DNA from: a bacterium
GTDB lineage: Bacteria; Patescibacteriota; Microgenomatia; UBA8517
Assembly (NCBI GenBank): GCA_021790215.1
Contig: JAJYIG010000003.1
Coordinates: forward strand, 1 to 42,406
Length of the DNA: 42,406 bases
Reading direction: 5' to 3'
Part shown: positions 3,025 through 20,422 of the stretch, in pieces
Position numbering within the stretch: the stretch's first letter is position 1
Layout of the letters: each line of letters starts with the position of its first letter
Translations under genes and position numbers: made by a program
Notes under the pieces: generated by a model
Databases searched by the model: none
Seen by the model: the letters and a program-made list of their open reading frames with translations, nothing else
What the model was told of the DNA's origin: nothing

Positions 3025-3037
3025 GGAGGTTATATAA

Positions 3038-3295: not shown

Positions 3296-3301
3296 AACCA
3301 A

Positions 3302-3318
3302 CTTCATGAAATCTTAAT
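3302..3318 (+). promoter_or_regulatory. Putative OmpR-type tandem box 3 (CTTCAT-N5-CTTAAT), autoregulatory
   Basis: 10 nt upstream of TATAAT (3329-3334), 6 nt before response regulator ATG. Confidence 0.65.
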
Positions 3319-3340
3319 GATTTTTTAATATAATACGCTC

Positions 3341-4003: not shown

Positions 4004-4007
4004 TAAT

Positions 4008-5366
4008 ATGAACACAAAAGGAATTAGATTTAAGATTATTTCTTGGTTCACTGTAACTCTTTTTCTGGTTGTCACTACTACTTTTGCCTCCTTTTATCTA
4101 ATTACTAGACAAATCCTTTTTGCACAGGTAGATAGTGAACTTAAAAATCACTCACAGAAGTTCGTACCGGCATTAACTAATAGGACACAGATTAAAAACA
4201 TAGATTTTAGTGACACACCCGGGATGGTTGTTACACTTTTGGACCAGAACGGAAGTGCGCTGCAAAGTTCCTTGAGCTTAAATAGCCCATTTGTTTCATA
4301 TAAATATCCTTTTAGCGTGGTAGAGAATAGCCCCGAACCTGTTTTTATAGACCAAAGTATAAGCAATATGCCAATGAGATTTATTGCCGTTCCAGTTAGA
4401 GATGGAGATAAACTATTAGGCGTTGTGCTCGTAGCCCACCCAATTGATGTGATTCAAAAGTCATTAAATATTCTGATAGTCGCTCTTGCCGCACTCTTAG
4501 TACTACTTATTTTCCCCATTGTAATCATTGGTAACTTCCTGGCTGGAAAAATGGTAAAACCGCTGACCGAAGTGGTCAATAAAATGCAACATATAAGCTC
4601 CGAAAATCTTGATGAGAGAGTAAATGTCCCCAAGACTAAAGATGAACTACAAAGTCTTGGTATTACGTTTAATAGCCTTCTCGATCGTCTACAGGATTCT
4701 TTCAGAAGGGAAAGACAATTTATTGGAGACATGGCTCATGAGTTAAAAACCCCCATTGCTACTTTAAAAAGTGAGATAGAGTTATCGCTTTCAAAAAATA
4801 GGACAATTGATGAGTACAGAAAAACCTTAGAAAGTTCACTAATCGATACGAACAGGTTGTCAACCTTAACGGGAAACATTTTAGATTTGGCTTGGACCAG
4901 GGCACAGAAAAACTCGGGGAAGAAATTTAGTTTGTCTGATTTGATAAAGGAGATGGGGGAAATTGCAAATAAACTGGCACTTCAAAAGGAGATAACCATC
5001 AAAACCGACATTGGCGATAATGTTTTTATTACAGGTTTCCCCGATAAAATGGGACGAGCAGTATTAAATATCTTGGATAATGCTATCAAATTCACCCCAA
5101 AAGGCGGGGTGGTATCATTAAATCTGTATAAAAAGGGCAATAAGGCTCAGATAGAAATCAAGGATACAGGAATTGGGATTCCAGCAAAGGAACTTCCACA
5201 CATTTTCGAGAGATTTTATAGAGGGACCAATGAGAATAAAGCTACAGGTACCGGATTGGGACTGGCGATTTCCAAAGGAATTATAGAAATGCACAATGGA
5301 AGTATTAATATTAAGAGTAAGGTCGGAGTAGGGACAATCGTAACCATAATCTTAATGAATTCTTAA
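4008..5366 (+). CDS. Sensor histidine kinase (HAMP-HisKA-HATPase)
   Basis: Two TMs, DMAHELKTP H-box, NILDNAIKF, DTGIGI, GTGLGL; start moved to ATG 4008, just after the regulator stop. Confidence 0.95.
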   Translation: MNTKGIRFKIISWFTVTLFLVVTTTFASFYLITRQILFAQVDSELKNHSQKFVPALTNRTQIKNIDFSDTPGMVVTLLDQNGSALQSSLSLNSPFVSYKYPFSVVENSPEPVFIDQSISNMPMRFIAVPVRDGDKLLGVVLVAHPIDVIQKSLNILIVALAALLVLLIFPIVIIGNFLAGKMVKPLTEVVNKMQHISSENLDERVNVPKTKDELQSLGITFNSLLDRLQDSFRRERQFIGDMAHELKTPIATLKSEIELSLSKNRTIDEYRKTLESSLIDTNRLSTLTGNILDLAWTRAQKNSGKKFSLSDLIKEMGEIANKLALQKEITIKTDIGDNVFITGFPDKMGRAVLNILDNAIKFTPKGGVVSLNLYKKGNKAQIEIKDTGIGIPAKELPHIFERFYRGTNENKATGTGLGLAISKGIIEMHNGSINIKSKVGVGTIVTIILMNS

Positions 5367-5367
5367 T
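5351..5367 (+). promoter_or_regulatory. Putative OmpR-type tandem box 4 (CTTAAT-N5-CTTAAT)
   Basis: 11 nt upstream of TACTAT (5379-5384), 6 nt before ATG 5391. Confidence 0.65.
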
Positions 5368-5390
5368 CCGAATTCAGATACTATTTAACA

Positions 5391-5750
5391 ATGGATTTAC
5401 AAAAACTGCTCGTCACAATTTTTAGTTTTGGAGGCATTGCTTTTACCTACTGGTTCTTTTTGATGAAAAAAGAGAAAGAGGTAGAAGCTTCCGATTCAAT
5501 AAATATAACAGTTAATGGTGGTTATAATCCTGAGGTTATATCAATACCGTTTGGTAAAACTACAATTTTGAATTTCACACGAACAGATCCAACAGAATGC
5601 CTGAATGAAATTGTCTTAGGGGACTTCAATATCAGACGAGAACTTCCTTTAGGTAAAAAGATAGCTATAAAACTCGATCCCAAGAAAAAAGGAGAATTTG
5701 GATATTCGTGCGGGATGAATATGTATCATGGAAAAATCGTCGTCAAATAA
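5391..5750 (+). CDS. Membrane-anchored cupredoxin-domain protein (CupA-like)
   Basis: [23 protein letters not shown] motifs; directly upstream of copA. Confidence 0.9.
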
Positions 5751-7974
5751 TCAAACAACAAAAACATATCCAATTAAAGGAATGCACTGTGCAAGCTGCG
5801 TTCGAGTGATTGAACGTGCACTGTCCGTCGTTCCAGGGGTGTCAAAATGTAATGTTAATCTGGCAACTGAAAAGGCAACCGTTGTTTTTGACCAAAATAA
5901 AGTTACAAACGACACGATAGCAAATGCTGTCAAAAATGTTGGGTACGAGGCAATTGTTGATCAAAAAATTGAAGAAAAGGACGAACTTCAGCAAGAAAAA
6001 TTAAAGGAACTAAAAGCCCTAAGAAACAAAGTAATCATTGGGCTTTCACTTGGAATCTTAATTCTTTGGGGAAGCTTCCCTGGCCTAATGCACACAGCCC
6101 CAATGATATTACAGAACTTTTGGGTACAAATGCTTTTGGCTACTCCGGTTCAGTTTTGGGTTGGTTGGGAATTTTATAGAGCGACAATAAACTCGCTGCG
6201 CCACAGGACTGCCAACATGGATACATTGGTTACTATTGGCACAACAGTTGCCTATTTATACTCTGTTGTTGTAACGATATTTCCCGCTCTAATAAGTGGA
6301 ATTACCAATAATCCAATGCCTTATTTTGATACGTCTACAATTATTATTGGTCTAATTCTTCTTGGAAGATATTTTGAAGCCAAAGCAAAAGCCGGTACCA
6401 GTGAAGCTATAAAAAAACTCATCGGGCTACAGGCAAAAACAGCCAGAGTTATTAGAAATGGCGAGGAAGTAGATATTCCTATTGATCAAGTAAAAATCGG
6501 AGATGTTATACGAGTTAGACCCGGAGAGAAAATTCCAGTTGACGGAATAATTCTAGAAGGAGAAAGCTCGATTGATGAATCGATGATTACCGGGGAAAGC
6601 TTGCCTGTAGACAAAATTAAAGGTGATACAGTGGTTGGCGCCACAATGAATAAAACCGGCTCCTTTACTTATAAAGCGACCAAAATCGGGGAAGATTCAA
6701 TGTTGGCTCAGATTATTAAATTAGTCGAAGATGCCCAAGGTAGCAAAGCCCCTATCCAACGTTTGGCAGATTTGGTTTCTTCATATTTTGTCCCAATAGT
6801 ATTGATGCTGGCTTTTGTCACTTTTGCTATTTGGTTTGATTTTGGACCAACACCTGCTTTTCTTTTTGCGCTTCTTAATACCGTTGCCGTTCTTATCATC
6901 GCTTGCCCTTGTGCCATGGGTTTGGCGACTCCTACTGCGATTATGGTTGGAACAGGAATTGGCGCTGAGAATGGAATTTTAATTAAAGATGCAGAAAGTC
7001 TGGAAATTGCCGGAAAGATAAAATCTGTCGTTTTTGATAAAACGGGAACTTTAACCAATGGAAAACCAGAGGTTACTGATGTAATACCGGGTGCGGGTTT
7101 TACTAAAAATGACATTTTAAGGATTGCAGCTTCTATTGAAATTAAATCTGAACATTCTCTTGCCGAAGCAATTGTATCGAAAGCTAAACTCGAAAAAATA
7201 AAATTGGTAGATTTAGAAAAATTCCAAGCCATTCCGGGCCACGGAGTTTCTGGTCTAATTAGCAAAAATAAGATCCTTTTTGGTAACGGAAAGTTAATGG
7301 ATAAAGAAGGTATTGTTTTTTCAAAACAGAAAGGTGATATTGAAAATCTTGAAAACGAAGGTAAAACTGTAATGCTTCTAGCTCAGAGTAAGCAATTAAT
7401 AGGTCTTGTTGCCGTTGCCGATACTTTGAAGGAAAGTGCTAAGAATGGTGTAGATAAACTCAAAAAGATGGGAATAGAAACGATTATGTTTACAGGTGAT
7501 AATACTCGCACGGCTAACGCCATTGCTAAAAGAGCTGGTGTCGATAAAGTTCTTGCAGAAGTATTACCGGGGGATAAGGAATCAGAAATAAGAAAAATTC
7601 AGGCTATTGGTAAAAAAGTTGCTATGGTGGGTGACGGAATTAACGATGCACCCGCTCTTGCTGCCGCTGACGTCGGAATTGCAATGGGCACAGGAACTGA
7701 TGTCGCGATTGAGGCCGCGGACATTACACTTATCAACAAAAATCTTGAGTCTGTTGCCAATGCTATCGAACTTTCAAAAAAGACTATGCGGACTATCAAG
7801 ATGAATTTAATTTGGGCCTTTGGCTATAACATTATCTTAATCCCAATAGCGATGGGGGTGCTTTATCCGTTTTTTAGAATTTTACTTAATCCGATATTTG
7901 CTTCGGTTGCGATGGCTTCAAGTTCTGTCTCAGTTGTAACCAACTCCTTGTTACTTAAGAGATTTAAAATTTAA
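5728..7974 (+). CDS. copA: Cu(I)-translocating P1B-1 ATPase
   Basis: [32 protein letters not shown] and MASSS metal-site motifs. Confidence 0.95.
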
Positions 7975-7976
7975 AA

Positions 7977-9098
7977 ATGGAAGAAAATTCAAAGAGCTTA
8001 TTTAAAATACTTATTGGAGTCTTAGTTGTACTTGGAATTGTCACGAGCTATTTGTTAATCAAATTATTCTTGGTTACAAACACATCAATTGATTTAACCA
8101 AACTGGCACCCGGTAATACGAATCTTATTCCAATTTTTCTGACAGGGCTTTTAACTGGGGGTCTGACTTGTCTTGCGGTTCAGGGTGGTCTTTTGGCTTC
8201 CACTATTGCAATGCAGGAAGAGGAGAGGTTGGAAGAAAAAGGTAAGAAAAGCGGAAATGCGGTTCCAATATTGTCCTTTTTAATAGCAAAACTAATTGCT
8301 TATACGATTCTTGGATTTTTGTTGGGTTGGTTTGGATCACTTTTCCAATTATCCTTAACTGCTCAAGTAATAATGCAGTTTGTCGTGATCATTTTTATGA
8401 TAGGCACAGCTGGAAACATTTTAGAAGTTCACCCAATATTCAGATATTTTGCGATTCAACCTCCCAGATTTTTAACTAAAATAATTAGGAATCAATCCAA
8501 AAGTAAAAACATTTTCGCCCCTGCTTTTTTAGGGGCGCTTACAATTTTCATTCCTTGCGGAACAACCCAGGCGATGATGGCGTTGGCAATTGGAAGCGGA
8601 AAACCAATCTTGGGGGCTTCCATCCTTTTTTCATTTATCCTAGGCACGACCCCCCTCTTTTTCATTCTTGGTTATTTTGCAACAAAGCTAGGAGATACTT
8701 ATCAAAAAAAATTCATGAAAGTAGCCGCAGTCGCATTGATTTTACTATCAATATTTAATCTCAAAAATGCACTAGGGCTCGCCGGAATCAATATTGGATC
8801 GATCAAACCTTCAAATACTGGCGATGTTGCCGTTAATAATCCTACTATAGAGATAACTTCGAGTGGTTATTCTCCGGGAAGTATAAACGTTAAATCTGGA
8901 GCTAAAATCAAGCTAACATTAAATAACACTACGGGCGGTGGATGTATCCAATCCTTTGTAATACCGAAACTAGGAGTTCAGCAAGTTGTTAGAGAAGGAA
9001 CAACTCAAACTGTGGAATTTACCGCACCAGACCAAAAAGGCCAGATAGCTTTTATGTGCGGCATGGGAATGTTTAGAGGAGTAATTAATGTTATATGA
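7977..9098 (+). CDS. DsbD_2/TauE-like membrane protein with C-terminal cupredoxin domain
   Basis: LTCLAVQGG, FIPCG, F.LGT.P motifs; C-terminal FMCGMGMFRG. Confidence 0.85.
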   Translation: MEENSKSLFKILIGVLVVLGIVTSYLLIKLFLVTNTSIDLTKLAPGNTNLIPIFLTGLLTGGLTCLAVQGGLLASTIAMQEEERLEEKGKKSGNAVPILSFLIAKLIAYTILGFLLGWFGSLFQLSLTAQVIMQFVVIIFMIGTAGNILEVHPIFRYFAIQPPRFLTKIIRNQSKSKNIFAPAFLGALTIFIPCGTTQAMMALAIGSGKPILGASILFSFILGTTPLFFILGYFATKLGDTYQKKFMKVAAVALILLSIFNLKNALGLAGINIGSIKPSNTGDVAVNNPTIEITSSGYSPGSINVKSGAKIKLTLNNTTGGGCIQSFVIPKLGVQQVVREGTTQTVEFTAPDQKGQIAFMCGMGMFRGVINVI

Positions 9099-9322
9099 GT
9101 AAAATTAGAGAGGCGAAATTCAAAATAGACGGTATGCACTGTGTAAGTTGCGCCATGAATATTGATTTTGATTTGGAAGATTTGGACGGAATTCACAGCG
9201 CAAAAACCAGTTATGCTAAATGCGAGTGTCAAGTTAAATATGACGAGGAAAAAATAAACCATAACGATGTGATATCACAAATTAATAAAACAGGATATAA
9301 AGTTAAGGAGGTGAGTATCTGA
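9095..9322 (+). CDS. copZ: Copper chaperone / HMA domain protein (CopZ-like)
   Basis: IDGMHCVSC, 75 aa, ends TGY. Confidence 0.85.
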   Translation: MSKIREAKFKIDGMHCVSCAMNIDFDLEDLDGIHSAKTSYAKCECQVKYDEEKINHNDVISQINKTGYKVKEVSI

Positions 9323-9323
9323 G

Positions 9324-9515
9324 ATGATGAATTTTGGGTATTATGGAGGAGATTGGAATAATGTACCTAACTATATGCAACAAATGATGCAGAACTATTA
9401 TGGAGGGATAGCTCCTTTTGGAGGACTTCTGGGTTTTTTACAAGTTGTAATTTGCCTATTATTAATAGTTTTGCTGGTCGTGTTAATTAGATATTTTTGG
9501 TTGAAGGCCAAATAA
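9324..9515 (+). CDS. Small Met/Gly-rich membrane protein
   Basis: AAGGAGGTG RBS; one C-terminal TM. Confidence 0.7.
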   Translation: MMNFGYYGGDWNNVPNYMQQMMQNYYGGIAPFGGLLGFLQVVICLLLIVLLVVLIRYFWLKAK

Positions 9516-9524: not shown

Positions 9525-10829
9525 CTAATGTGCTCTAAGTGAAGTTATGTTCCCATTCTGGACGAATAGAGGAAAGTTAAAAAGATTAAATAGCTCCCGT
9601 TTTTCTTCTATATTTTTATTTGTTATTACATATCTCGCATAATCTCGTATATCCCAAATTCTTGAGTTTGGATTAATATCTTGTTGGAGAAAAATTGCCT
9701 CTCTCATTCTTTTGAATTCGTTTAGACCCTCTTGAATTTTATCTGTTAAGACTAACTCATGAGAATGGGCAATATACATAAAATTGATAAGTTTCAGCAA
9801 GCTTCTTTCTAATTCTTCTTCAGAAATGTACGGTTCCTTACAAGTGTGATCAATTTGCCTCGAGCAGTGATAGTAAATATGATATCTAGGCTCCTTATTT
9901 AATCTTTCTCTATATCTATCTTCTCCAACAATACTTGCTTTACAATTCGCACATTTGAGCAATCCCCTATATGTAAAGGTCTTTGATCCCCATTTAGATT
10001 TTTTGGGAACTACTAATTTTTTCTGAACTTTATCGAATATTTCTTTTGTGATCAAAGGCGGGTAGGATCCTTTGTACCAATTTCCGCTTTTTAACGGAAA
10101 TTCAAACTCTCCGTAATAAAACGGGTTTCTTAACATTAAATATATCTGACTAAGGCTAACCGGAATACCTGATTTGTTAGAAAATTTTATTTCGTCTAAC
10201 CATTTTTTGATCTTTCTACCACTTGCATTTTCTTCAATAACTTTTGTGAACATTTGGGTAATAATTGGGCTTCTTTCCGGATCAAGTATTACGTCTTTTA
10301 TGCCATTAAAACTTCTATTCATATATCCAATTGGGCTAGGCCCCGGTCGCCATCCCATCTCGCATTTTGCCCTGATTCCTCGTTTTACATTTATTCCTTT
10401 TTGGTCATTCTCGAGTTTTGCCTGGGAGCAAAGAATCATTAAAAGAAACTTCTCATTGGGATTATTTGAAAACATTTGTGAGAAAGTTCTAATTTGTAAA
10501 AGCTTTCCCTGATCCATTAAGTCGACTAAATTTCCCAAATCGCCAGCGTTACGTGACAATCTATCTGGTGCCCATGTAAGAATTCCGTTAAATCTTTTTT
10601 CTCGGATGTCGCTAAGGAGTTTCATGAACATCGGGCGTTGTCCTGAATCTTTTGCCGAGTGGCTTTCCTGTAGAATTTCAGTTACCTTCAAACCTTCTTT
10701 AATCGCAAGAGCCTGCATCTCCTTTAATTGGCTATCAATACTCATTACTTGCCGTTCGTCACTTTCTGATGACTTTCTTGCATACAAACAATAGTTTATA
10801 GGTTGTTCTAAGGGTAGGGTTGTTTCCAT
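9525..10829 (-). CDS. Large serine recombinase (resolvase + recombinase + Zn ribbon)
   Basis: YARKSS catalytic Ser, DRLSRN, recombinase domain (PIGY, LRNPFYYG), CANC...YHCS...C zinc ribbon. Confidence 0.95.
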   Translation of the reverse strand: METTLPLEQPINYCLYARKSSESDERQVMSIDSQLKEMQALAIKEGLKVTEILQESHSAKDSGQRPMFMKLLSDIREKRFNGILTWAPDRLSRNAGDLGNLVDLMDQGKLLQIRTFSQMFSNNPNEKFLLMILCSQAKLENDQKGINVKRGIRAKCEMGWRPGPSPIGYMNRSFNGIKDVILDPERSPIITQMFTKVIEENASGRKIKKWLDEIKFSNKSGIPVSLSQIYLMLRNPFYYGEFEFPLKSGNWYKGSYPPLITKEIFDKVQKKLVVPKKSKWGSKTFTYRGLLKCANCKASIVGEDRYRERLNKEPRYHIYYHCSRQIDHTCKEPYISEEELERSLLKLINFMYIAHSHELVLTDKIQEGLNEFKRMREAIFLQQDINPNSRIWDIRDYARYVITNKNIEEKRELFNLFNFPLFVQNGNITSLRAH

Positions 10830-10866
10830 CAGGATGGAGAGTACCGCAAAAATTGTAAAAGTCTAG
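10796..10866. repeat. Recombinase-start site, copy R1 (promoter plus first 11 codons; dyad TCCATC-AG-GATGGA)
   Basis: 61/71 ungapped identity to 14347-14417; exact 39-bp core 10804-10842 = 14355-14393. Confidence 0.93.
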
Positions 10867-10875
10867 AGGTATAGC

Positions 10876-13512
10876 CTAAGTATTAGTTCTTTTCAGTAGT
10901 CGGGCAGAGTTTAGAAAAACAGCGACATCAGGGAATGATTGGGCGGCAGCTGCAAATACTGGAGGTAAAAATCCGATTGAGGCTAATCCCATTCCTACAA
11001 TATCAAAACCTATTCCTAAGGCGATATTTTGTTTAATCGTGCTAAAGGTTTTCTTGGCAATAGCAATTGCTTCCGGGAGTTGATTCCAATCATCTCCCAT
11101 CAGCACCACATCGGCGGCTTCTAGGGCAATATCAGTACCGGCTGCACCCATACCGATGCCCACATCGGCCTGTGAAAGTGAAGGTGCGTCATTTACTCCG
11201 TCACCCACCATTGCTACTTTGTACCCTCGTTCTTGTAAATCTTTTACCACCTGAATTTTGTCTTCAGGTAATAATTCCGCCTGACAATCAATGCCTAAAG
11301 CAGATGCCACTGTTTGAGCAGAGTGTTTATTATCTCCGGTCAGCATGATGATCTTTTTAAACCCGAGTTTCTTTAGTGTTTCTATCGCCGGTTTCACTTC
11401 GTTACGGATAATATCAGTGATTGCCAACAAACCCAAAACACCCTCTTTTCTATTGGCTAAGATCAAGACGGTTTTTCCTTGTTTCTCAGATGCTTCAATC
11501 AGGTCTTTTGTTTTAAAGTTGATGGTAATACCCTGTTCATGGAGCAATTTTTGATTACCCAAATAATGGGTTTGCTTTTTAATACTGGCGATCACCCCTT
11601 TACCGGCAAGAGTCGAAAACTTGTCCGGTTCGGATAGATGTACAGCCAACTCAGCCGCCTTATCAAGCACGGATTTAGCCAAAACATGCTCTGAATACCG
11701 TTCCACTGATGCAGCAATCGAAAGGATGTCATCGCTTGTCAAATTAGAAACAGAAATAATATCGGTTACCTGCGGTCTGCCAAAGGTTAAGGTGCCGGTC
11801 TTGTCCACCAATAGCACATTTACTTTAGCTAACAGTTCCAGATAACGACCACCTTTAATGAGAATCCCTTGCTTGGCCGCTCTACCTGTTGCCGCTACCA
11901 CAGCCATAGGAGTCGATAAGGCCACGGCACAGGGACAAGCTACTACCAGTACGGCAATTGTTGCAGATAAGTTTCTGGTGAATAAATATGTCGCGGTGGC
12001 AACTAGGATTACCAAAGGCAAGTAATAACCGCTAAACCGGTCAGCAAACTTTTGAATAGGTGCCTTATTTGTTTCAGCCTCTTCAACCAGATGAATAATT
12101 TTACCCAAAGTAGTATCGGCTCCTACCCGGTTTACCTTGATCTCCAAATGACCTGATTGATTCATTGTGGAAGCAAAAACCTGACTTCCCAGTTCAATCC
12201 GAACAGGTGTAGATTCGCCGGTAATTGTCGCCTGGTCCACCGCACTGACCCCTCGGGAGACAATACCGTCAACAGGAATTCTCTCACCGGGTTTAACCAC
12301 TATCGTGTCTCCAACGATAATATCTGTAATATTGACTTCAACTTCCTTACCTCCTTTTTTAATCCACGCCGTGGTGGGAGCCAATTTAATAAGTTCATTG
12401 ATTGCTTGGCGGGAACGGTCAACAGTAAAACTTTCCAAAAAATGAGCAATGCGCACAAAAAATACAATTAATAATGCGGCAGATAGCTCATGTGAGACGG
12501 AAGCCGCGGTTATACCCACAGTCATGATCAAATCGGTATTGACCTCCTTGTGTAGTAGGTTTTGCAGGGCACTTTTAAAAATCGGATAGCCTCCAACTAA
12601 AACAGCACCAATCAAAAGCCAGTTCGGAATGGGAACAAGTACAGCCTCAAGAATACCAAGTCGTTCAAAGACAATTTCGACTAACAAAAGAACGGCTAAA
12701 AAACCAACAAAAGCAAAAGTAATGATGCCGTCAATCTTGATTCCCTGGGTTTTTGCATCGTTTACCACCTTAAGCCCTGAGCGTTGAATCAACTGTTTAA
12801 TATCAGCCAGCGAAATTATATTTTCGTCATAAGTCAGAGATACTTTTTCAGCAGTAAAAAGAAAGTTATAAGTACTGATACCCGTCTGTGTTTTAAGCAC
12901 TTTCTCCAAAGGAAGAGCGCATTCAGGGCAATCTAATCCTTTCACTTTTAGACTTATCTCTTTTATCGCTTGAGTCTTTGCCGTTGAGTCGATAGTTAGC
13001 CCTGCAACATTTTCAGTCGATTGACGGCTACACTGTCCTTCAGCACACGTATTACAGTTATTATCTTTTCTAATTCGATAAAAACCATATATAACAGAAA
13101 GCAAGGTTAAACCGGCAATAATTGGTTTGGTAACACCCAAAAACGAGACTCCAAATATCCCGGCATAGATAGCCAGCATGGGTGATCCGCAGCAGCCAAT
13201 TAAAAAACAGCCGGCAATCGATAAAATGGAAACCAAGGACAGTCCACCAAAAACGCCTTTCAGATTGCCAGGAGAGGAACGGCGACGGTCTAGATAATTA
13301 ATAAAGGTAAATGTCATAAATGCCGTAGCCAAAGCATAGGAAAAGCCAAGGAAATAGTCCCTTTGATCAAAATATCCTTGAATAATTAGTGGAATCTGGC
13401 TGTTATCGACCACCCAGGGAGAAAAAAGTGTTTTGCTTAATATTCGAAAGCCAAAGTGGAGAACAAAAACGGCTATAAATACGACAAATGGGAGGTAATG
13501 TCTAAATTTCAT
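10876..13512 (-). CDS. Heavy-metal P1B-type ATPase with extra N-terminal Cys-rich membrane domain
   Basis: GLDCPEC HMA, TGES, CPC, DKTGT, GDGVNDAP; N-terminal ~170 aa with TMs, GCCGSP and CNTCAEGQC. Confidence 0.92.
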   Translation of the reverse strand: MKFRHYLPFVVFIAVFVLHFGFRILSKTLFSPWVVDNSQIPLIIQGYFDQRDYFLGFSYALATAFMTFTFINYLDRRRSSPGNLKGVFGGLSLVSILSIAGCFLIGCCGSPMLAIYAGIFGVSFLGVTKPIIAGLTLLSVIYGFYRIRKDNNCNTCAEGQCSRQSTENVAGLTIDSTAKTQAIKEISLKVKGLDCPECALPLEKVLKTQTGISTYNFLFTAEKVSLTYDENIISLADIKQLIQRSGLKVVNDAKTQGIKIDGIITFAFVGFLAVLLLVEIVFERLGILEAVLVPIPNWLLIGAVLVGGYPIFKSALQNLLHKEVNTDLIMTVGITAASVSHELSAALLIVFFVRIAHFLESFTVDRSRQAINELIKLAPTTAWIKKGGKEVEVNITDIIVGDTIVVKPGERIPVDGIVSRGVSAVDQATITGESTPVRIELGSQVFASTMNQSGHLEIKVNRVGADTTLGKIIHLVEEAETNKAPIQKFADRFSGYYLPLVILVATATYLFTRNLSATIAVLVVACPCAVALSTPMAVVAATGRAAKQGILIKGGRYLELLAKVNVLLVDKTGTLTFGRPQVTDIISVSNLTSDDILSIAASVERYSEHVLAKSVLDKAAELAVHLSEPDKFSTLAGKGVIASIKKQTHYLGNQKLLHEQGITINFKTKDLIEASEKQGKTVLILANRKEGVLGLLAITDIIRNEVKPAIETLKKLGFKKIIMLTGDNKHSAQTVASALGIDCQAELLPEDKIQVVKDLQERGYKVAMVGDGVNDAPSLSQADVGIGMGAAGTDIALEAADVVLMGDDWNQLPEAIAIAKKTFSTIKQNIALGIGFDIVGMGLASIGFLPPVFAAAAQSFPDVAVFLNSARLLKRTNT

Positions 13513-13931
13513 TGGGGTTTGAGCTGTGAGGCCTTAATTATTAACTTACCCGAGCCGTCACGGAACACTGTGCCTGAAACTTGGACAAAATCTTTAACAT
13601 TGGGTAGGGTTCCTGAGTAACTTACCGGAATCTGATTGATGGCGCAAGTGACTACCCCGCAATTGGCAAATTCCTTGTTATCAATAATCACCAGTGTTTG
13701 GCTTTCCGGATAAACAAAGGAAACTACCCCTCTAAGATTTATTGATTTATCAAGGTATTGGTTGACATTGTCTGCCATAGTATTAACGTCTAGGACGGTT
13801 CCTGAATTTATTTGGCTAAGGTTGTTCGTACTATTTGTTGCTTTGATCAGCGTTTCGTATTTGACGATTAAGCCAACTCCAATAAGCAGCATTATTATTA
13901 AAACGATAGATAAATATTTTGTTGATTTCAT
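13509..13931 (-). CDS. Membrane-anchored OB-fold-like protein with CxxxxC
   Basis: N-terminal TM, LRGVV...V.VSG.V pattern, CGVVTC; stop overlaps ATPase start; start set to ATG 13931. Confidence 0.7.
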   Translation of the reverse strand: MKSTKYLSIVLIIMLLIGVGLIVKYETLIKATNSTNNLSQINSGTVLDVNTMADNVNQYLDKSINLRGVVSFVYPESQTLVIIDNKEFANCGVVTCAINQIPVSYSGTLPNVKDFVQVSGTVFRDGSGKLIIKASQLKPQ

Positions 13932-13936
13932 AATTT

Positions 13937-14266
13937 TTAGTATCTGGTACACTCAAAAATATTATTGGCGGTCAACTTCAAGATACTTTGCCCGAGTTTT
14001 ATCAGTTCGGCGATTTTTTCATCCACCAAACAATAAAAAACCTGTCTGCCGTCTTGTCTGCTTTGAACTAAGCCGCACTCCTTAAGACAACTTAGGTGGG
14101 CTGAAACATTTGGTTGTGACAAACCCGTAACTTCAACTACCTCATTCACTGACTTTTCTTTGTCGATTAAGGATTTAAGAATTGCCAAACGGGAACTGTC
14201 GGCAAAACCGTTAAAAAGACGGGCTTCTAGTTGGATAGTGTTTTGATTGGTGATATTACGACTCAT
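13937..14266 (-). CDS. ArsR/SmtB-family repressor (CmtR/CadC-like)
   Basis: ADSSRLAIL, SQPNVSAHLSCLKECGLV, GRQVFY, C-terminal Cys; start set to ATG 14266. Confidence 0.92.
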   Translation of the reverse strand: MSRNITNQNTIQLEARLFNGFADSSRLAILKSLIDKEKSVNEVVEVTGLSQPNVSAHLSCLKECGLVQSRQDGRQVFYCLVDEKIAELIKLGQSILKLTANNIFECTRY

Positions 14267-14320
14267 ATATATAATCGTGTAATTATATATCAATATATTA
14301 ATATTTTTTCAGATTGTCAA
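14267..14320 (-). promoter_or_regulatory. Sigma70 promoter and ArsR-type operator
   Basis: Minus-strand TTGACA(14320-14315)-N17-TATATT(14297-14292); 9-6-9 inverted repeat ATATATAAT-N6-ATTATATAT at 14267-14290. Confidence 0.7.
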
Positions 14321-14346
14321 TAACACTACATTTTATAAGTATTATG

Positions 14347-14417
14347 TTATGGGCTGTTCTAAGGGTAGGGTTGTTTCCATCAGGATGGAGAGTGCCGTAA
14401 GGATAGATGAAGTCTAG
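14347..14417. repeat. Recombinase-start site, copy R2 (encodes stub METTLPLEQPIT*)
   Basis: Direct repeat of 10796-10866; minus-strand ATG at 14380 gives 11 residues identical to the recombinase N-terminus, then T and stop. Confidence 0.93.
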
Positions 14418-14441: not shown

Positions 14442-15950
14442 TTACCAGTTATCATCACTGTTGAAAGACAGTGAACGACTAATGCTTTCGTACGGGCCGA
14501 TACAAGGTACGAAATATACGTCAATACCCGGGGTGCTGGCCACTTCTAAGATTTTTAATAGAAGAAGTGAAAAAGCATCTGCCAAATCATCATGCCTTTC
14601 GATTCCGAATCCTGTTAACTGATTTATTAATTCTTCAGCGCCGTATCTTGGAAACCAAACTTTTCCTTGTTGAATTATATGAGTAACTAAAGCGAGTCTG
14701 GTTCTTTTGTCCTGGCCATGAATTTGGACTCCCTCGACGAGAATACTTTTGCTACTCAGATAATCAATGAAGGCTTTTTGATAACCGACCTCTTCGATAA
14801 ATAACTTCGTTTGTTCCCCATTTACTACAGTTTTTGAAAGTGAAATAGCAACATCAACCGTTGTCGGAAAATCCATCCTTTTATTTATAGGGTTTGGTAG
14901 GATATACACACCCAACTTTTCTCCCCGACCAAACATATATGCAGAAACCATTGCGGTGTAATCTGCCGATTCTCTTTCAGAGATAGCAAGATCAATTCCT
15001 ACTGCTGCAAATTCAAAATCATCTGCATCTGGGGAAGGGAGATTATCATAAAATTTAATCCACTCACGTTTAACAAGTCTATCCTCGTCTGAAATAATTT
15101 TGAGTAAATATTCACGATAGAAAGCTGACTCCTGCAAAAATGTTTTCTTTAGTTTTTCGACATCTTCCATGGTGGGGTATTTGGCGGGCCACAAAATATT
15201 TTTACCGTCATCAATAAGGGGATATTCAAAAAATTCTCCCGATAATCTTCCCTCATAGATAGATTTTTTAAATCTCATAATTAAACTGTCCTCGTGAAGA
15301 AGATTTCCGATTACCAAGGTCTTTGTATTTTTATCTCCTACTGGAACAATTTCGGCGTTAAACCATGTATTGGTTCGGTCCCGTCCCTCTTTGGTTTTAA
15401 CGCTGTTTATATCTTCAATATCATCACAAATGATTAGATCGGGTCTATATTGTTCATGCCTTATCCCGCGGATACTTTGTTCGGTAGAAACAGCCGCAAT
15501 CCTTGCTCCGAACTTTGGGATTACAATTGAGTTGGATCCCCACTCGTCTTCCGGTGATTCAAATGGCCCGATATCGGCCTTAAGTAAGTCGTTACTTTCC
15601 AGTTCCCGCTTTATATTTTCCAAGTGCAGTTTTGCCTGCGCTTGGGTTTGGCTGACAATTAATACAAACTTTTTTTGCTGAATTCCTACGATTGACCAAA
15701 TCACATAGGAAAGAGTGACCAGAGTTGACTTTGCCGATCCGCGAAACGCCACAAGAACGGCGAACTCAACATTTTCTTCAGTCAATTTAAATATCTCATG
15801 ATGGAATGGTGCAAACTCACAGTTTATGTAGTGGGGTAGATAAAGTGAGAAAAACCAATAATGGCTTTTCCTGGCAAGAGCACGCCTGATTTTTCTGTCT
15901 CTCCTGATCTTATTCAACTCTTCCTGACCGAGTTGTGGAAAATAAGTCAT
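14442..15950 (-). CDS. Phage-type terminase large subunit
   Basis: Walker A AFRGSAKST, RGIR, Walker B IICDDIED, RNase-H nuclease GIDLA ... HDDLADA. Confidence 0.9.
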   Translation of the reverse strand: MTYFPQLGQEELNKIRRDRKIRRALARKSHYWFFSLYLPHYINCEFAPFHHEIFKLTEENVEFAVLVAFRGSAKSTLVTLSYVIWSIVGIQQKKFVLIVSQTQAQAKLHLENIKRELESNDLLKADIGPFESPEDEWGSNSIVIPKFGARIAAVSTEQSIRGIRHEQYRPDLIICDDIEDINSVKTKEGRDRTNTWFNAEIVPVGDKNTKTLVIGNLLHEDSLIMRFKKSIYEGRLSGEFFEYPLIDDGKNILWPAKYPTMEDVEKLKKTFLQESAFYREYLLKIISDEDRLVKREWIKFYDNLPSPDADDFEFAAVGIDLAISERESADYTAMVSAYMFGRGEKLGVYILPNPINKRMDFPTTVDVAISLSKTVVNGEQTKLFIEEVGYQKAFIDYLSSKSILVEGVQIHGQDKRTRLALVTHIIQQGKVWFPRYGAEELINQLTGFGIERHDDLADAFSLLLLKILEVASTPGIDVYFVPCIGPYESISRSLSFNSDDNW

Positions 15951-16369
15951 TTTTGCCCCTCCTTTTCTACTGCCGGAATTAGTGAAGCCAGCTGTAAGGC
16001 TTTTGTCACCAACGCTTCCTGTTCAGGGGTTAATGTTTCGTTTTGATTCTTTAAATTCGCTGTAACTTCAACCTTGGTTGCATAAGCTTGATGGTGGTGC
16101 TTTAACCAGAAAATAATAGCTGTCATGTTTTGATCCTTTATGGCCGTCAGGAGCTGGCTCTCCGCCATATCATTCACTAGAGCAGACCCTGCTTCCAGGG
16201 CCAACTCCGCTTCTTTTGCAAACTTTTCGTCATTTATTTTCCATCTGTAATATGTAGCCCTGGCTATCCCGATTTTTCTGCATGCAACCTCAACTACGGG
16301 AGTCTCCTTTAATTTTTCCAGTAAATCTTTCTTCTGAATTGATTGTCTTTTGATAATTGTATTTGTCAT
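15947..16369 (-). CDS. HTH protein, probable terminase small subunit
   Basis: ACRKIGIARATYYRW HTH, TAIIFWLK motif, ATGA overlaps with both neighbours. Confidence 0.75.
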   Translation of the reverse strand: MTNTIIKRQSIQKKDLLEKLKETPVVEVACRKIGIARATYYRWKINDEKFAKEAELALEAGSALVNDMAESQLLTAIKDQNMTAIIFWLKHHHQAYATKVEVTANLKNQNETLTPEQEALVTKALQLASLIPAVEKEGQK

Positions 16370-17715
16370 TGCATTTTTACGGCTTTTAGCCCGGTCAGGT
16401 TCTCCCATCTTTTTTTAATGACCTCAGCGTAAACCGGCGACTTTTCCATCACATAACATCTTCTATGCATCTTTTCGGCCGCAATTAGGGTACTACCGGA
16501 ACCGCCAAAAGGTTCAATTATTAAATCATTCCTTTTAGTTAGAACTTTTATATAGGGGATAAGTATTTCAATCGGTTTAGTTCCAAAAATTATTCCCTGT
16601 CCAGAACTTTTTTCATCTGATGCCTTATATTCAATAAAATCAGTCGGACAGTATTTCTTCCCTTTCTCATAACTTTCCCATGTTGGTTTACCGGATGTAG
16701 CGTAAAGTGCGGTCTCATATTCCTCTTGAAGTAGGGGTTCACCCTCAGGATCTTTATTCAGATTTATATTTCCTGAGGTTCCCAGCATAGCGAAATCGTA
16801 TTTATTAAAAAACTTATATTTTGCCGCAAATCCCTGCATTCTGTTTGGTAGATGCCAGATAATCGTGTTTCGATATTTCCAATGTTTTTCTAACTCATTC
16901 CAAATAGTTCTTAAGTTCTTCGGATTTTCATAAACAATAATTGAAAAATTCGGTTTTTGGATTTTGGAAACGTTTTCCATCCATTTTTCCGTAAAATCAG
17001 GTGGTAGAACATCGGTCTCCAAATATCTTCGATCCCTTTTGGCCCCGAATCCTGTAATGGCTCCGTTATATTTTTTCTTTCCATGTAGGTAATCCAAGAT
17101 GTAGGGTGGATCGGTGAAACACATGTCTGCTTTTTCATTACCCACTAGTTTCAACACATCAGCTTCAACTGTGGAGTCACCGCACATCAATCTCGAATCC
17201 CCAAGCAAATAGATATCACCTTTTTGAAAATCGATCTTGTTTATATCCAGTTTTTTGAGCTCCTTTTCCAAATCAAATTGTTCAGGTGTTGAATCGATTT
17301 CAAATATTTCGTCAAGGTCTTCTGAAGAAAATCCGACCACCGAAAGAAAGTCTTCGTCAAATTTGGCAAGAAGTTCCCAATCCCACTCTCCGACATTTTT
17401 ATTGAGCCTCAAATTTAACTCCTTTTCCTTCTCAATATCCGGAATGTTTACATAAACTACGGGTATTTCTTTAAATCCCAGGTCTTTAGTAACTTTTAAT
17501 CTAAAATGCCCACCAATAACAACATTCAACCTATTCGGGGCTTTGTTTACTATTATCGGATCCACCAATCCGAATTTTTTGATGCTTGAGGATAATCCGT
17601 TAATTGCCTCAGTTGACCACTTTCTGGGATTATATTCAGCAAATTTAAGCTCTTGTATGTCAACATCTACGATTTTCAGCTTGTCAGATACTGTTTCCAT
17701 AAGCATCTGAAGCAT
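16366..17715 (-). CDS. ParB/Srx-like domain fused to N6/N4 DNA methyltransferase (beta order)
   Basis: YNPRK..SIKKFGLVDPII..GGHFR ParB-like part; TDPPY followed by PFGGSGST; exact start uncertain (17715/17706/17700). Confidence 0.9.
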   Translation of the reverse strand: MLQMLMETVSDKLKIVDVDIQELKFAEYNPRKWSTEAINGLSSSIKKFGLVDPIIVNKAPNRLNVVIGGHFRLKVTKDLGFKEIPVVYVNIPDIEKEKELNLRLNKNVGEWDWELLAKFDEDFLSVVGFSSEDLDEIFEIDSTPEQFDLEKELKKLDINKIDFQKGDIYLLGDSRLMCGDSTVEADVLKLVGNEKADMCFTDPPYILDYLHGKKKYNGAITGFGAKRDRRYLETDVLPPDFTEKWMENVSKIQKPNFSIIVYENPKNLRTIWNELEKHWKYRNTIIWHLPNRMQGFAAKYKFFNKYDFAMLGTSGNINLNKDPEGEPLLQEEYETALYATSGKPTWESYEKGKKYCPTDFIEYKASDEKSSGQGIIFGTKPIEILIPYIKVLTKRNDLIIEPFGGSGSTLIAAEKMHRRCYVMEKSPVYAEVIKKRWENLTGLKAVKMQ

Positions 17716-19182: not shown

Positions 19183-20061
19183 TTAGCTCATTAGCTTATC
19201 GGGGAGTAGACTATCCTTTGTCCATTTTCCATCATAAAAAGCAGAATTATTCTCTGAAATTCTTGTAATATCTCTGTCGCCATTTTTGTCTTTAGTTTCT
19301 TCAAAACGATTGATACCAAAATCAACAGCAGCCATTTCTGCATTCTTGGCTGTGTTTGAAAAACCCTTTTTTAAAAGTTCGTTTGAATCAATCCAGGCGA
19401 AATATTCGTGAAGTTTGTGTTCCGGACCAAATGTATTTGTCAACCAAAGATTATTTTCTTTCGATTTGAACTGAAGAATAACCCTCCAAGCTTGATTCTT
19501 TATAGAAACGGGGTGTGTGGCGTAAGCCTCGATTCTTAGACCCGGGGTCAATGTCTTACTATATTTACCATCCCACCAATTCGGATTTTGGACCTCCCGG
19601 AATTTGCCATTCTCAAACTCGAAAGTAAATGTGTCACCGTCGTTAACCAAGTTCTTATCGATATATTCTTTGATCTTTTCAATTGGAAGATTGTCCAAAT
19701 CATCTTTGAGACCGGTTCTGGCAAATAAACTGAGTCCGGAAACTGCAAAGGCAAATCCTACCCATTCATTTTCTTTTTCGGCGGTAACCTTCCCTATGAC
19801 GCCAAAATTTCCCGTCATACTGGCATACCCTTCGCTGTACCATGCGATGGAGTAACCTTTATATTTAACGACTTGGCTATATTGAATAAGTTTTGGATTT
19901 ACTTTAACAAACTCGAGAATATCATCCTCCTTATAGCGCCTGTCTCCGCGGTCGTTTACTTTGATAGCTACCAGTTTTCCTTCCCGATCCCAACGTCTTA
20001 GGGTTTCTGGGTTTACCTTAATTAGAGCAGCTGCCTCATTAATGTCTATGAGTTTGTCCAT
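19183..20061 (-). CDS. MerR/excisionase-type HTH fused to unknown domain
   Basis: INEAAALIKVNPETLRRWDREGKL...RGDRRY N-terminal HTH. Confidence 0.8.
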   Translation of the reverse strand: MDKLIDINEAAALIKVNPETLRRWDREGKLVAIKVNDRGDRRYKEDDILEFVKVNPKLIQYSQVVKYKGYSIAWYSEGYASMTGNFGVIGKVTAEKENEWVGFAFAVSGLSLFARTGLKDDLDNLPIEKIKEYIDKNLVNDGDTFTFEFENGKFREVQNPNWWDGKYSKTLTPGLRIEAYATHPVSIKNQAWRVILQFKSKENNLWLTNTFGPEHKLHEYFAWIDSNELLKKGFSNTAKNAEMAAVDFGINRFEETKDKNGDRDITRISENNSAFYDGKWTKDSLLPDKLMS

Positions 20062-20203: not shown

Positions 20204-20257
20204 CAGCCAAGCAGTGCACCCCAGTGACCGAGACTTCTAGAATAGCCCAGAAACACC
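20204..20257 (+). repeat. Right island boundary (attR-like), copy 2 of direct repeat
   Basis: CAGCCAAG core plus 44/54 identity to 97-150; extra GACCGAGA copy at 20192-20199. Confidence 0.8.
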
Positions 20258-20422
20258 GCCAAAAAAGCTATTTTCAAAAGCGAGGATTATAACCATCGTT
20301 TACTCTCGAAAAAGCCCCGTTCGAATCTCTATTCTGTTGAGTTTATGGGATATAATCAAATAACATGAATCACCAAAACTTATGGTTCGTCTTTATATGT
20401 ACAAAAAAGTTAAATAATTTTT

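What the first reader, a model, noticed from the sequence alone, without database searches (positions are those of the whole stretch)
10796..14417. Candidate serine-recombinase cassette system: a metal-resistance cassette bracketed by two copies of the recombinase's own promoter/start site
Seen: a 71-bp ungapped repeat (61/71 identity, 39-bp exact core) at 10796-10866 and 14347-14417 tightly brackets arsR, the OB-fold gene and the P1B ATPase. Both copies are centred on TCCATC-AG-GATGGA, a dyad around a 2-bp centre; in R1 the symmetry extends imperfectly to 13 bp (10/13). Homology runs 35 bp on one side of the AG and 34 bp on the other. The recombinase ATG lies inside the dyad. R2 encodes a stub METTLPLEQPIT*, and its two differences within the 11 shared codons are synonymous (CAA/CAG, CCT/CCC). 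Known: serine recombinases exchange strands at a central dinucleotide flanked by inverted arms. Inference: a non-autonomous circle carrying a homologous site inserted at the recombinase 5' end without breaking the gene, i.e. integron-like cargo capture by a large serine recombinase.
Basis: partly seen in the sequence, partly recalled or inferred. Interest (0 to 1): 0.88.

Follow-up and report, generated by a model that had tools for sequence, protein, structure and literature searches.

The report
Metal-pump operon inserted beside island recombinase
A foreign heavy-metal efflux operon sits inside a 20-kb mobile island of a tiny groundwater-type bacterium, flanked by two copies of the island recombinase's promoter and gene start, but the evidence points to an ordinary one-off recombination accident rather than a new integron-like capture system.

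Summary
The repeat is real. It runs 71 nt (61/71 identical), extends to 84 nt, has a 39-nt exact core, and occurs twice in the 994-kb genome. It brackets a self-contained arsR / 147-aa protein / P1B-ATPase operon lying between terL and a large serine recombinase (LSR).

Relatives confirm an insertion. Several carry terL–site–LSR with nothing in between, and one (L110) shares the window's terL-to-site linker. In 55 terL–LSR pairs the interval holds 0 to more than 9 kb of unrelated cargo.

The integron-like mechanism is not supported:
- The repeated unit is a conserved two-block, promoter-like motif (CTAGACTTC-N8-10-GCGGTAC, then ATG). The same motif also precedes a small ORF family.
- None of 164 other LSR starts has a similar stub duplication.
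- R2 is mutated at two near-invariant motif positions.
- The LSR's likely own sites lie elsewhere: 71-nt imperfect repeats at 97-167 and 20204-20274 bound a 20.1-kb island at tRNA-Gln. A relative shows the empty site. These repeats are unrelated to R1/R2.

Best reading: a one-off recombination between two diverged copies of the LSR promoter–start segment. LSR catalysis at R1/R2 remains possible (about 0.1). Read-level tests could not be made.

The parts
29..102 (+). tRNA-Gln (CTG), the chromosomal anchor of the island
   Evidence: ARAGORN. Nearly identical to the tRNA in the island-free relative G008.
97..167 (.). Left island repeat (attL-like). It overlaps the last bases of tRNA-Gln and contains the palindrome CTAGAGA-CCGAGA-TCTCTAG.
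   Evidence: 71-nt alignment with 20204-20274, 55/71 identical, score 39 against a null of 8.8, 0 of 500 shuffles. Three-way alignment with G008.
620..9515 (+). Left cargo between the tRNA and the LSR: DUF1573 protein, two unknown ORFs, response regulator, histidine kinase, cupredoxin, CopA-type ATPase, DsbD_2-cupredoxin protein, HMA (CopZ-like) protein
   Evidence: Pfam and NCBIfam. In L023 and L110 the LSR stop is only about 200-245 nt from tRNA-Gln.
9525..10829 (-). Large serine recombinase, 434 aa; the only recombinase found among the island ORFs scanned
   Evidence: Resolvase + Recombinase + Zn_ribbon_recom domains; PHROG integrase, E = 2.5e-60.
10783..10866 (-). R1: functional LSR promoter-like motif (CTAGACTTT-N8-TTGCGGTAC), start codon and first codons of the LSR
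   Evidence: 17.8 bits against the family motif model.
10804..10842 (.). 39-nt exact core shared with 14355-14393
10876..13512 (-). P1B heavy-metal ATPase, 878 aa (Cd/Zn/Pb-type models score best among the specific ones)
13509..13952 (-). 147-aa protein of a rare family with a weak OB-fold (tRNA_anti-like) hit
   Evidence: 13 homologues among 5.8 billion proteins. 0 of 400 class genomes and 0 of 124 family genomes besides the window's own.
13937..14293 (-). ArsR/SmtB metalloregulator. This is the mechanical ORF; the likely start is the in-frame ATG at 14266.
   Evidence: start read from the sequence.
14292..14320 (-). The cassette's own near-consensus promoter, TTGACA-17-TATATT. It is followed by an AT-rich inverted repeat that looks like an ArsR-type operator (inference).
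   Evidence: sequence.
14334..14417 (-). R2: relic copy of the LSR promoter-start segment. It encodes the stub METTLPLEQPIT* and its block B is mutated (TTACGGCAC).
   Evidence: 15.1 bits; substitutions at positions that are G in 74/81 and T in 80/81 sites.
14442..15950 (-). Terminase large subunit homologue
   Evidence: PHROG 38, E = 2.6e-80; Terminase_6C.
15947..16408 (-). Terminase small subunit-like HTH protein
16366..17715 (-). ParB-N / DNA methyltransferase fusion
19183..20061 (-). MerR/excisionase-like HTH protein at the far end of the island
20204..20274 (.). Right island repeat (attR-like). From here on the sequence is collinear with the DNA that directly follows tRNA-Gln in G008.

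Best explanation
Shown:
- The window carries a 20.1-kb integrative island (about 103-20203) inserted at the 3' end of tRNA-Gln.
- Its backbone is ParB-methyltransferase, terS, terL and a large serine recombinase.
- That backbone recurs in many Patescibacteria, with highly variable cargo on both sides of the recombinase gene.

Inferred:
- R1 and R2 are two copies of the recombinase gene's own promoter-like motif, start codon and first 11 codons.
- The 3.5-kb arsR / 147-aa / P1B-ATPase operon is foreign and brings its own promoter. It entered the terL-LSR cargo slot through recombination between two diverged copies of that promoter-start segment. One copy was the resident one, contiguous with terL. 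The other came on incoming DNA from another island variant that carried the operon just upstream of its own recombinase promoter.
- The join could have been made in several ways: one homologous and one illegitimate crossover, a single crossover with a circular intermediate, or a tandem arrangement followed by deletion.
- The recombinase acting at a dedicated cassette site is not required.
- R1 now drives the intact recombinase gene and R2 is a decaying relic.
- The recombinase's own substrates are most likely the 71-nt repeats at the island ends.
For: Ancestral state:
- L110 has terL (85% aa, full length) joined to its LSR by the same roughly 30-nt linker and motif that the window has at terL-R2.
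- G016/L013 has the terL stop codon inside the motif, followed directly by the LSR.

Chimeric pattern:
- The R2 upstream half (spacer ATCTATCC) resembles L110 and L111 (ACCCACCC, ACGCACCT). The R1 spacer (TACAATTT) does not.
- The R1 downstream half (CAA CCT ATA AAC) equals L110. R2 diverges there.
- Mismatches are confined to the flanks (P = 2.4e-4).

The repeated unit is promoter-like:
- Block A is followed 8-10 nt later by block B, which contains TA..T, and the ATG lies about 8-12 nt further on. The spacing is the same in 81 distinct LSR sites.
- The motif occurs upstream of 113 of 164 LSR starts. It also stands 6-10 nt before the start of a 45-53-aa ORF family.

R2 is degraded at two near-invariant positions.

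The cassette is foreign and self-contained:
- It has its own 11/12 consensus promoter.
- The 147-aa protein was found in 0 of 400 class and 0 of 124 family genomes besides the window's own.
- G+C is 0.42-0.44 against about 0.38 for the surroundings.

The structure is a one-off: 0 of 164 other LSR starts show such a duplicate, and the positive control recovered the window's.

The LSR's own sites lie elsewhere:
- A tRNA lies convergent downstream of the LSR in 11 of 13 relatives' loci scanned and in the window itself. Different LSR subfamilies sit next to different tRNAs.
- The 71-nt end repeats are significant.
- G008 shows the empty tRNA-Gln site.
- The end repeats show no significant similarity to R1/R2 (P 0.04-0.76 in four uncorrected tests).
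Against: - The donor structure was not found. The flanks of the closest homologues of the 147-aa protein (81%, 78%, 73% identity) could not be fetched.
- Every route requires the two parental copies to share an identical 39-nt core while their flanks differ by about a third. That needs later gene conversion or a very specific donor.
- Homology between closely related LSR loci ends within 0-10 nt of block A in 95 of 115 pairs (15 of 27 pairs at >=88% identity). In L165 versus L158 it ends inside block A. A recombination site would also produce this pattern.
- Four or five loci have cargo lying between two motif copies: the window, G061, L054, L158 and perhaps L175.
- That the 71-nt end repeats are the LSR's substrates is an inference from position, not a test.
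Confidence: 0.6

Rival explanations
1. First reader's model. The LSR exchanges strands at a site that overlaps its own promoter and start codon. A non-autonomous circle carrying a matching site, with a replacement promoter and the first codons, was integrated there. This would make the terL-LSR interval an integron-like or SCC-like capture platform.
For: - Empty and alternative alleles exist.
- R1 and R2 have the reciprocal-exchange pattern.
- The motif is far more conserved than the flanking DNA.
- Homology breaks cluster at block A.
- Cargo lies between two motif copies in G061, L054 and L158 as well.
Against: - The proposed dyad and AG centre are not conserved.
- The motif has promoter geometry and also precedes another gene.
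- No other stub duplication was found among 164 LSR starts.
- Most cargo-bearing loci have one motif copy only.
- The LSR is placed as the integrase of a tRNA-Gln island whose end repeats are unrelated to R1/R2.
- Sharp breaks at block A are largely expected from gene packing: the median distance from the nearest upstream ORF end to block A is 21.5 nt.
- R2 has lost two near-invariant motif bases.
- A 39-nt identical core is unusual for serine-integrase sites (recalled knowledge, not from a call).
Confidence: 0.12
2. The two-block motif is a recombination hotspot used by some other enzyme or process. Candidates are another of the genome's five serine recombinases, or transcription-associated breakage at a strong promoter. 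It would not be the adjacent LSR.
For: - Breakpoints cluster at the motif.
- The 1-Mb genome holds five Resolvase-domain genes and one full-length tyrosine recombinase gene plus a fragment.
Against: - There is no specific candidate enzyme.
- Gene packing explains most of the clustering.
- The motif always travels with the LSR or the small ORF, as a promoter would.
Confidence: 0.08
3. In-place duplication (a long target duplication or slippage) followed by divergence of the two copies.
For: Direct repeats flank the insert exactly.
Against: - The 16 mismatches are confined to the flanks, with a 39-nt perfect run (P = 2.4e-4).
- The R1 spacer is of a different type from the lineage's spacers, whereas the R2 spacer matches them.
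Confidence: 0.03
4. Assembly artefact: a separate 3.5-kb circle or a second strain was threaded into the island at the shared 39-mer.
For: - The window is a contig of a metagenome-assembled genome.
- Public contigs of the same study break at the repeat.
Against: - Both junction sequences are unique chimeras that an assembler using words longer than 39 nt would not invent.
- Contigs from two runs reproduce the LSR-core and core-ATPase junctions at R1 and the core-terL junction at R2 without differences (table 8). The arsR-side junction of R2 (14285-14363) is not in the rows listed.
Confidence: 0.04

Closest known systems
tRNA-integrated genomic islands and phage satellites (PICI- or PLE-like; PLE is recalled to use a large serine recombinase)
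   Same: - Inserted at the 3' end of a tRNA gene and bounded by direct repeats.
- Integrase next to the tRNA.
- Carries packaging genes (terS, terL) but no capsid or tail genes in the island.
- Accessory cargo for metal resistance.
   Different: - The integrase is a serine rather than a tyrosine recombinase.
- Both terS and terL are present.
- The end repeats are long (71 nt) and imperfect (77%).
- The host is a Patescibacteria genome of about 1 Mb.
- Helper dependence is untested.
Staphylococcal cassette chromosome (SCC) elements with Ccr large serine recombinases (recalled)
   Same: - A large serine recombinase; the nearest NCBIfam models are CcrB, CcrC and CcrA.
   Different: - Scores are far below the family cut-offs (97 bits against 900).
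- The island target is tRNA-Gln, not rlmH.
- The repeats around the cassette do not resemble the island's integration-site repeats.
- There is only one such cassette.
Integrons (recalled)
   Same: Variable cargo accumulates immediately upstream of the recombinase gene and its promoter.
   Different: - The recombinase is serine-type.
- The cargo units are whole operons with their own promoters.
- The repeated element sits at the 5' side and has promoter geometry.
- No attC-like array is present.
- Most loci have one motif copy.
res sites of Tn3-family resolvases, which overlap the resolvase promoter (recalled)
   Same: A serine recombinase gene preceded by a conserved DNA element at its promoter; two direct copies flank a DNA segment.
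   Different: - No three-subsite res architecture is evident.
- The recombinase is a large, integrase-type protein.
- The motif also drives another gene.
Homology-facilitated illegitimate recombination and mosaic exchange between related mobile elements (recalled)
   Same: - One junction lies in shared sequence and the other at an arbitrary point inside the LSR's 5' codons.
- The copies are chimeric.
- The backbone is conserved and the cargo variable.
   Different: The donor was not observed, and the perfect 39-nt core needs an extra assumption.

Membership tests
Large serine recombinase | N-terminal resolvase catalytic domain followed by a recombinase domain and a zinc ribbon | tested here: met
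   PF00239 (residues 15-159), PF07508 (184-272) and PF13408 (288-348), all above their cut-offs.
Large serine recombinase | Catalytic serine motif near the N-terminus | tested here: met
   The translation reads ...YCLYARKSSESDERQ... (sequence). That this matches the family motif is recalled, not computed.
Large serine recombinase | Recombines defined att sites at a central dinucleotide | not testable with these tools
   Only candidate sites could be named (97-167 and 20204-20274).
Integron | IntI-type tyrosine recombinase next to the capture site | tested here: not met
   The adjacent recombinase is serine-type. PF00589 matches only on contigs C56 and C66.
Integron | Array of cassettes, each bounded by a recombination site | tested here: not met
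   The window has one cassette with two motif copies. 0 of 164 other LSR starts have a stub duplicate.
Integron | Promoterless cassettes read from a platform promoter | tested here: not met
   The cassette has its own 11/12 consensus promoter at 14320-14292.
SCC-type cassette chromosome | Ccr-family recombinase | tested here: not met
   CcrB 97.4 bits against a cut-off of 900; CcrC 67 against 900; CcrA 55 against 700.
SCC-type cassette chromosome | Cassettes flanked by repeats of the integration-site sequence | tested here: not met
   R1/R2 show no significant similarity to the island-end repeats.
tRNA-integrated genomic island | One border at the 3' end of a tRNA gene, with flanking direct repeats | tested here: met
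   tRNA-Gln at 29-102. Repeats at 97-167 and 20204-20274, 55/71 identical, 0 of 500 shuffles.
tRNA-integrated genomic island | Empty site in a relative | tested here: met
   In G008 (L202:6620-6850) tRNA-Gln is directly followed by the homologue of window 20204-20345.
tRNA-integrated genomic island | Excision as a circle | not testable with these tools
   Only contigs, not raw reads, were on offer.
Phage satellite | Packaging genes without capsid or tail genes | tested here: met
   terS and terL are present. No structural protein family appears among the island ORFs scanned. Several ORFs have no family.
Phage satellite | Mobilisation by a helper phage | not testable with these tools
   No helper is known.

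The most novel reading that the evidence does not exclude
The conserved CTAGACTTC-N8-10-GCGGTAC element in front of the recombinase gene is both its promoter and a recombination site. Patescibacteria islands of this family would use it to capture promoter-bearing gene cassettes next to the recombinase gene. The window would have caught a recent capture before the second site decayed. This would be a serine-recombinase counterpart of the integron.
Probability: 0.12. Interest if true: 0.85.

Novelty: new member of a known kind. Interest (0 to 1): 0.38.

Why it matters

The evidence instead points to an ordinary island with a recent cargo insertion, which lowers the claim. What remains useful:
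1. A widespread and apparently undescribed island backbone in Patescibacteria (ParB-methyltransferase, terS, terL, serine recombinase). It sits at tRNA genes and carries metal-resistance, restriction-modification and other defence cargo.
2. A concrete candidate attB/attL/attR set for a compact 434-aa serine integrase.
3. A dated example of how such tiny genomes in mine drainage acquire metal efflux genes.

Three full-text searches found no description of such a backbone or capture system (listings only).

Tried and rejected
**Reads.** One search found 4 runs of one mine-drainage study, all kept as contigs. Laid on 8000-17000, the contigs stop and start at the 39-nt core. No joint linking R1 to R2, no circle junction and no empty site is listed. 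92 pieces and 68 loose ends were not shown. This says nothing either way.

**Rfam.** 0 matches at E <= 1 in 9000-16500.

**Hairpin or dyad at the start codon.** Folding 52 of 81 sites gave a mean z of -0.68. A large subfamily has no stem at all. Rejected as a family feature.

**Mosaic breakpoint inside the LSR at the stub end.** Sliding identity shows that L110 matches the window at about 80% for the first 540 nt and about 60% afterwards. There is no switch at codon 11.

**A second copy of the tRNA-side sequence at the far end of nine relatives' loci.** Nothing longer than 18 nt lay away from the tRNA-flank query region itself; L046 also gave a 28-nt inverted match inside that region. The far ends may lie outside the 10-kb flanks.

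**The small ORF family.** Not found in the window and it has no Pfam family.

**Origin of the cassette.**
- The 147-aa protein is unrelated to the OB-fold cargo protein of L024.
- No match in plasmids.
- The contexts of its 81%, 78% and 73% identical homologues could not be fetched.

**Breaks at block A as proof of a site.** Weakened by gene packing.

**Literature.** Three full-text searches gave 0, 2 and 17 papers, none describing such a system. Only the listings were seen. No paper was read and no supplements were seen.

One search failed on an index error and was corrected. One search used wrong coordinates and was corrected.

Full report
**1. Observation**

The repeat is as described. The repeat finder reports one family, 10783-10866 and 14334-14417 (84 nt, 81% identical, spacing 3551). 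The exact core is 39 nt (10804-10842 = 14355-14393). With up to three mismatches it occurs only at these two places in the 993,967-base genome, of which the window is contig C12. An 18-nt part is expected 0.06 times by chance in the window. The alignment score of 52 is reached by 0 of 500 shuffles. The dyad TCCATC-AG-GATGGA, the start codon inside it and the stub METTLPLEQPIT* with two synonymous differences can all be read directly from the sequence.

**2. Local anatomy**

Gene order on the minus strand is:
- ParB-N/DNA-methyltransferase (17715-16366)
- terS-like (16408-15947)
- terL (15950-14442)
- R2
- ArsR/SmtB regulator
- a 147-aa protein
- an 878-aa P1B ATPase
- R1
- a 434-aa large serine recombinase (LSR, 10829-9525) with Resolvase, Recombinase and zinc-ribbon domains

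The operon is self-contained. A TTGACA-17-TATATT promoter lies at 14320-14292. It is followed by an AT-rich inverted repeat and an in-frame ATG at 14266 (read; the operator role is inference). The ATPase stop is 9 nt from R1. No terminator-like site was found between the ATPase and the LSR start, so read-through into the LSR is possible (inference).

**3. It is an insertion**

Several relatives have terL and the LSR adjacent, with the terL stop close to or overlapping the motif in front of the LSR. The gap from the estimated terL end to the LSR start is:
- G016 (L013, L023, L103): 28 nt
- L104 and L105: 28 nt
- L086: -26 nt
- L081: 54 nt
- L110: 66 nt
- L053: 117 nt

.

L110 is the most telling. 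Its terL is 85% identical to the window's over all 502 residues. The roughly 30 nt from the terL stop to the motif match the window's terL-R2 junction. So R2 stands at the ancestral position and the operon was inserted downstream of it.

The two copies are chimeric:
- The R2 upstream half has the spacer type of this lineage (ATCTATCC; compare ACCCACCC in L110 and ACGCACCT in L111). R1 has a different, AT-rich spacer (TACAATTT).
- Downstream of the core, R1 matches L110 (CAA CCT ATA AAC) and R2 does not.
- The 16 mismatches lie only in the flanks (P = 2.4e-4).

This is the pattern of an exchange between a resident copy and a diverged incoming copy. It is not the pattern of a duplication made in place.

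**4. What the repeated unit is**

I collected 80 loci from species genomes and 80 from metagenomes with relatives of the LSR (36-87% identity). Titles name Woesebacteria, Shapirobacteria, Collierbacteria and other Patescibacteria. In front of the LSR start lies a two-block element, C-T-A/G-G-A-C-T-T-C, then 8-10 nt, then G-C-G-G-T-A-C/T-n-n-T, with the ATG about 8-12 nt further on.
- A loose pattern finds it within 330 nt upstream of 113 of 164 LSR starts. The same pattern also hits 359 times in reversed control sequence over 2.2 Mb, so only the position is meaningful.
- In 81 distinct sites the core bases are 91-100% conserved. These sites were picked with that pattern, which inflates the figures.
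- The spacing and the TA..T hexamer are those of a -35/-10 promoter for a nearly leaderless mRNA (inference). The simple sigma-70 scan did not call it.
- A profile of the element finds 134 copies at E <= 0.05. Of these, 105 are next to an LSR start and 29 are not.
- Most of those 29 lie 150-420 nt upstream of the LSR, 6-10 nt before the start of a conserved 45-53-aa ORF (...LLKRCEKYFYKYLLT.DK.YIDRFF.TSKR.K...). That ORF has no Pfam family. In L063, L064 and L066 two copies in tandem each precede a small ORF.
- So the element behaves as a promoter or operator shared by the recombination genes.
Folding of 52 sites shows no family-wide stem.
- R2 has substitutions at two positions that are G in 74/81 and T in 80/81 sites. 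It scores 15.1 bits against a median of 24.6; R1 scores 17.8.

**5. The cargo slot**

In 55 terL-LSR pairs the interval runs from -26 to 9327 nt. This count includes the window and a few contigs fetched twice. The upper bound is set by the 10-kb flanks. The 137 ORFs in intervals over 600 nt match 91 Pfam families, including HTH regulators, tRNA_anti-like OB proteins, type I restriction-modification, efflux proteins, MFS transporters and P-type ATPases.

In an unbiased sample, terL homologues occur in 25 of 401 genomes of the class (30 places). Of these, 27 have a same-strand LSR 0.1-25 kb downstream. Without the unpublished G118 the count is 25 of 28.

A distant second motif copy with cargo between the two copies occurs in:
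- G061 (L185/L035): motif, small ORF, 9.7 kb holding a type I restriction-modification system and a Shedu-like nuclease, motif, LSR
- L054
- L158
- perhaps L175

. In G061, L054 and L175 the distal copy is simply the small ORF's promoter.

A self-search of the 210 nt around each of 164 LSR starts found no other direct duplicate of a promoter-start segment. It found only paralogous LSR genes in L053, an inverted 80-nt match in L091, a 34-nt match well upstream of the start segment in L028, and matches of 22 nt or less. The same search recovers the window's repeat.

**6. The island and the recombinase's own sites**

A tRNA gene lies convergent downstream of the LSR, and its identity tracks the LSR subfamily:
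- tRNA-Gln in the window (29-102), L023, L110 and L024
- tRNA-Glu(CTC) in L154, L155, L158, L165 and L178
- tRNA-Glu(TTC) in L086
- tRNA-Ser in L046 and L052
- none found in L047 and L090

.

Window 97-167 and 20204-20274 form a 71-nt imperfect direct repeat (55/71; 0 of 500 shuffles). In G008, a complete genome of another genus in which no relative of the LSR was found (DNA search; protein search at E <= 1e-60), tRNA-Gln is followed directly by the homologue of window 20204-20345. Hence window 103-20203 is a 20.1-kb island with the LSR as the only recombinase among the ORFs scanned.

The 9.4 kb between the tRNA and the LSR holds a two-component system, a cupredoxin, a CopA-type ATPase, a DsbD_2-cupredoxin protein and a CopZ-like protein. 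This is a second cargo block, since in L023 and L110 the LSR ends about 200-245 nt from the tRNA.

The island-end repeats show no significant similarity to R1/R2 (P 0.04-0.76 in four tests).

**7. Weighing the mechanism**

For a recombination site at the motif:
- Among 82 distinct LSR-adjacent sites, 115 pairs are >=80% identical over 300 nt. In 95 of them upstream homology ends within 10 nt of block A. The same holds for 15 of 27 pairs at >=88% identity. The pairs are not independent.
- In L165 versus L158 the break falls inside block A.

Against:
- The nearest upstream ORF ends a median of 21.5 nt from block A, so any change of neighbour breaks homology there.
- The motif has promoter geometry and a second client gene.
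- The stub duplication is unique to the window.
- R2 is decaying.
- The LSR has a separate, unrelated pair of candidate sites.
- A 39-nt identical core is not what serine integrases need (recalled).

I therefore favour a homology-driven or partly illegitimate exchange between two island variants (0.6) over LSR catalysis at R1/R2 (0.12). Every route needs either an unusually similar donor core or later gene conversion, and the donor was not seen.

**8. Comparison with known systems and novelty**

The whole structure is a tRNA-integrated island with a satellite-like backbone and a serine integrase. The cassette is a recent cargo gain. It is not an integron: it has a serine enzyme, its own promoter and no array. 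It is not an SCC element: Ccr models score far below their cut-offs, the target differs, and the repeats are unlike the integration site. Three full-text searches returned no description of such a backbone or capture system. Only listings were seen.

**9. Limits**
- No raw reads were available.
- The origin of the cassette is open. The 147-aa protein has only 13 relatives among 5.8 billion proteins, the best being 81% identical. It has none in 400 class or 124 family genomes besides the window's own, and none in plasmids.

Noticed in passing
window 29-20274: The finding lies inside a 20.1-kb island inserted at tRNA-Gln and bounded by 71-nt imperfect direct repeats (97-167 and 20204-20274). The relative G008 (L202:6620-6850) shows the empty site.
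   Followed up: yes
L023-L185; G-handle places: The backbone ParB-methyltransferase / terS / terL / variable cargo / serine recombinase, without capsid or tail genes, recurs across Patescibacteria. 27 of 30 terL places in 401 class genomes have the recombinase downstream. It may be a satellite-like island family.
   Followed up: partly
L117:9843-10001, L185:15374-15523, L064:9623-9757 and about 20 other loci: A conserved 45-53-aa ORF family (...LLKRCEKYFYKYLLT...YIDRFF.TSKR...) starts 6-10 nt after a copy of the same promoter-like motif, usually just upstream of the recombinase gene. It has no Pfam family. It could be a directionality factor or a regulator.
   Followed up: partly
L185:15336-15367 to L035:9919-9965 (G061): A 9.7-kb block lies between two copies of the motif. 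It holds a type I restriction-modification system, a Shedu SduA-like nuclease and a DUF2779/Cas4-like protein.
   Followed up: partly
window 3341-9322; L015:5217-18672 (G010): The copper-resistance genes to the left of the recombinase (CopA-type ATPase, DsbD_2-cupredoxin, CopZ-like) have homologues in G010. There they lie on the other side of the recombinase, in a 17-kb interval between it and terL.
   Followed up: partly
L165, L158, L155, L154, L178, L086, L046, L052: Different recombinase subfamilies sit next to different tRNA genes (Gln, Glu-CTC, Glu-TTC, Ser-GCT), as expected if target specificity has diversified.
   Followed up: partly
G000:C64:234-434; G000:C69:1016-1831; contigs C11 and C47: The 1-Mb genome holds a second tRNA-Gln with the same 128-nt flank (85% identical over 201 nt). 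It also holds a paralogue of this recombinase that appears frameshifted, and five Resolvase-domain genes in all.
   Followed up: no
window 20127-20173; L202:3653-3698 and 6216-6263; L024:883-977: A short conserved element just inside the right island end also occurs twice in the island-free genome G008 and at the far end of the L024 island. Its nature is unknown.
   Followed up: no
window 10830-10875: No terminator-like site separates the ArsR-controlled ATPase operon from the recombinase gene, so metal stress might raise recombinase expression by read-through.
   Followed up: no
window 10875-12196 (run X1, record 5): The same sample holds a 17.5-kb contig with an ATPase gene about 85% identical at the DNA level. 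Its similarity to the window stops at the ATPase stop codon. A relative of the cassette may therefore live in another context there.
   Followed up: no
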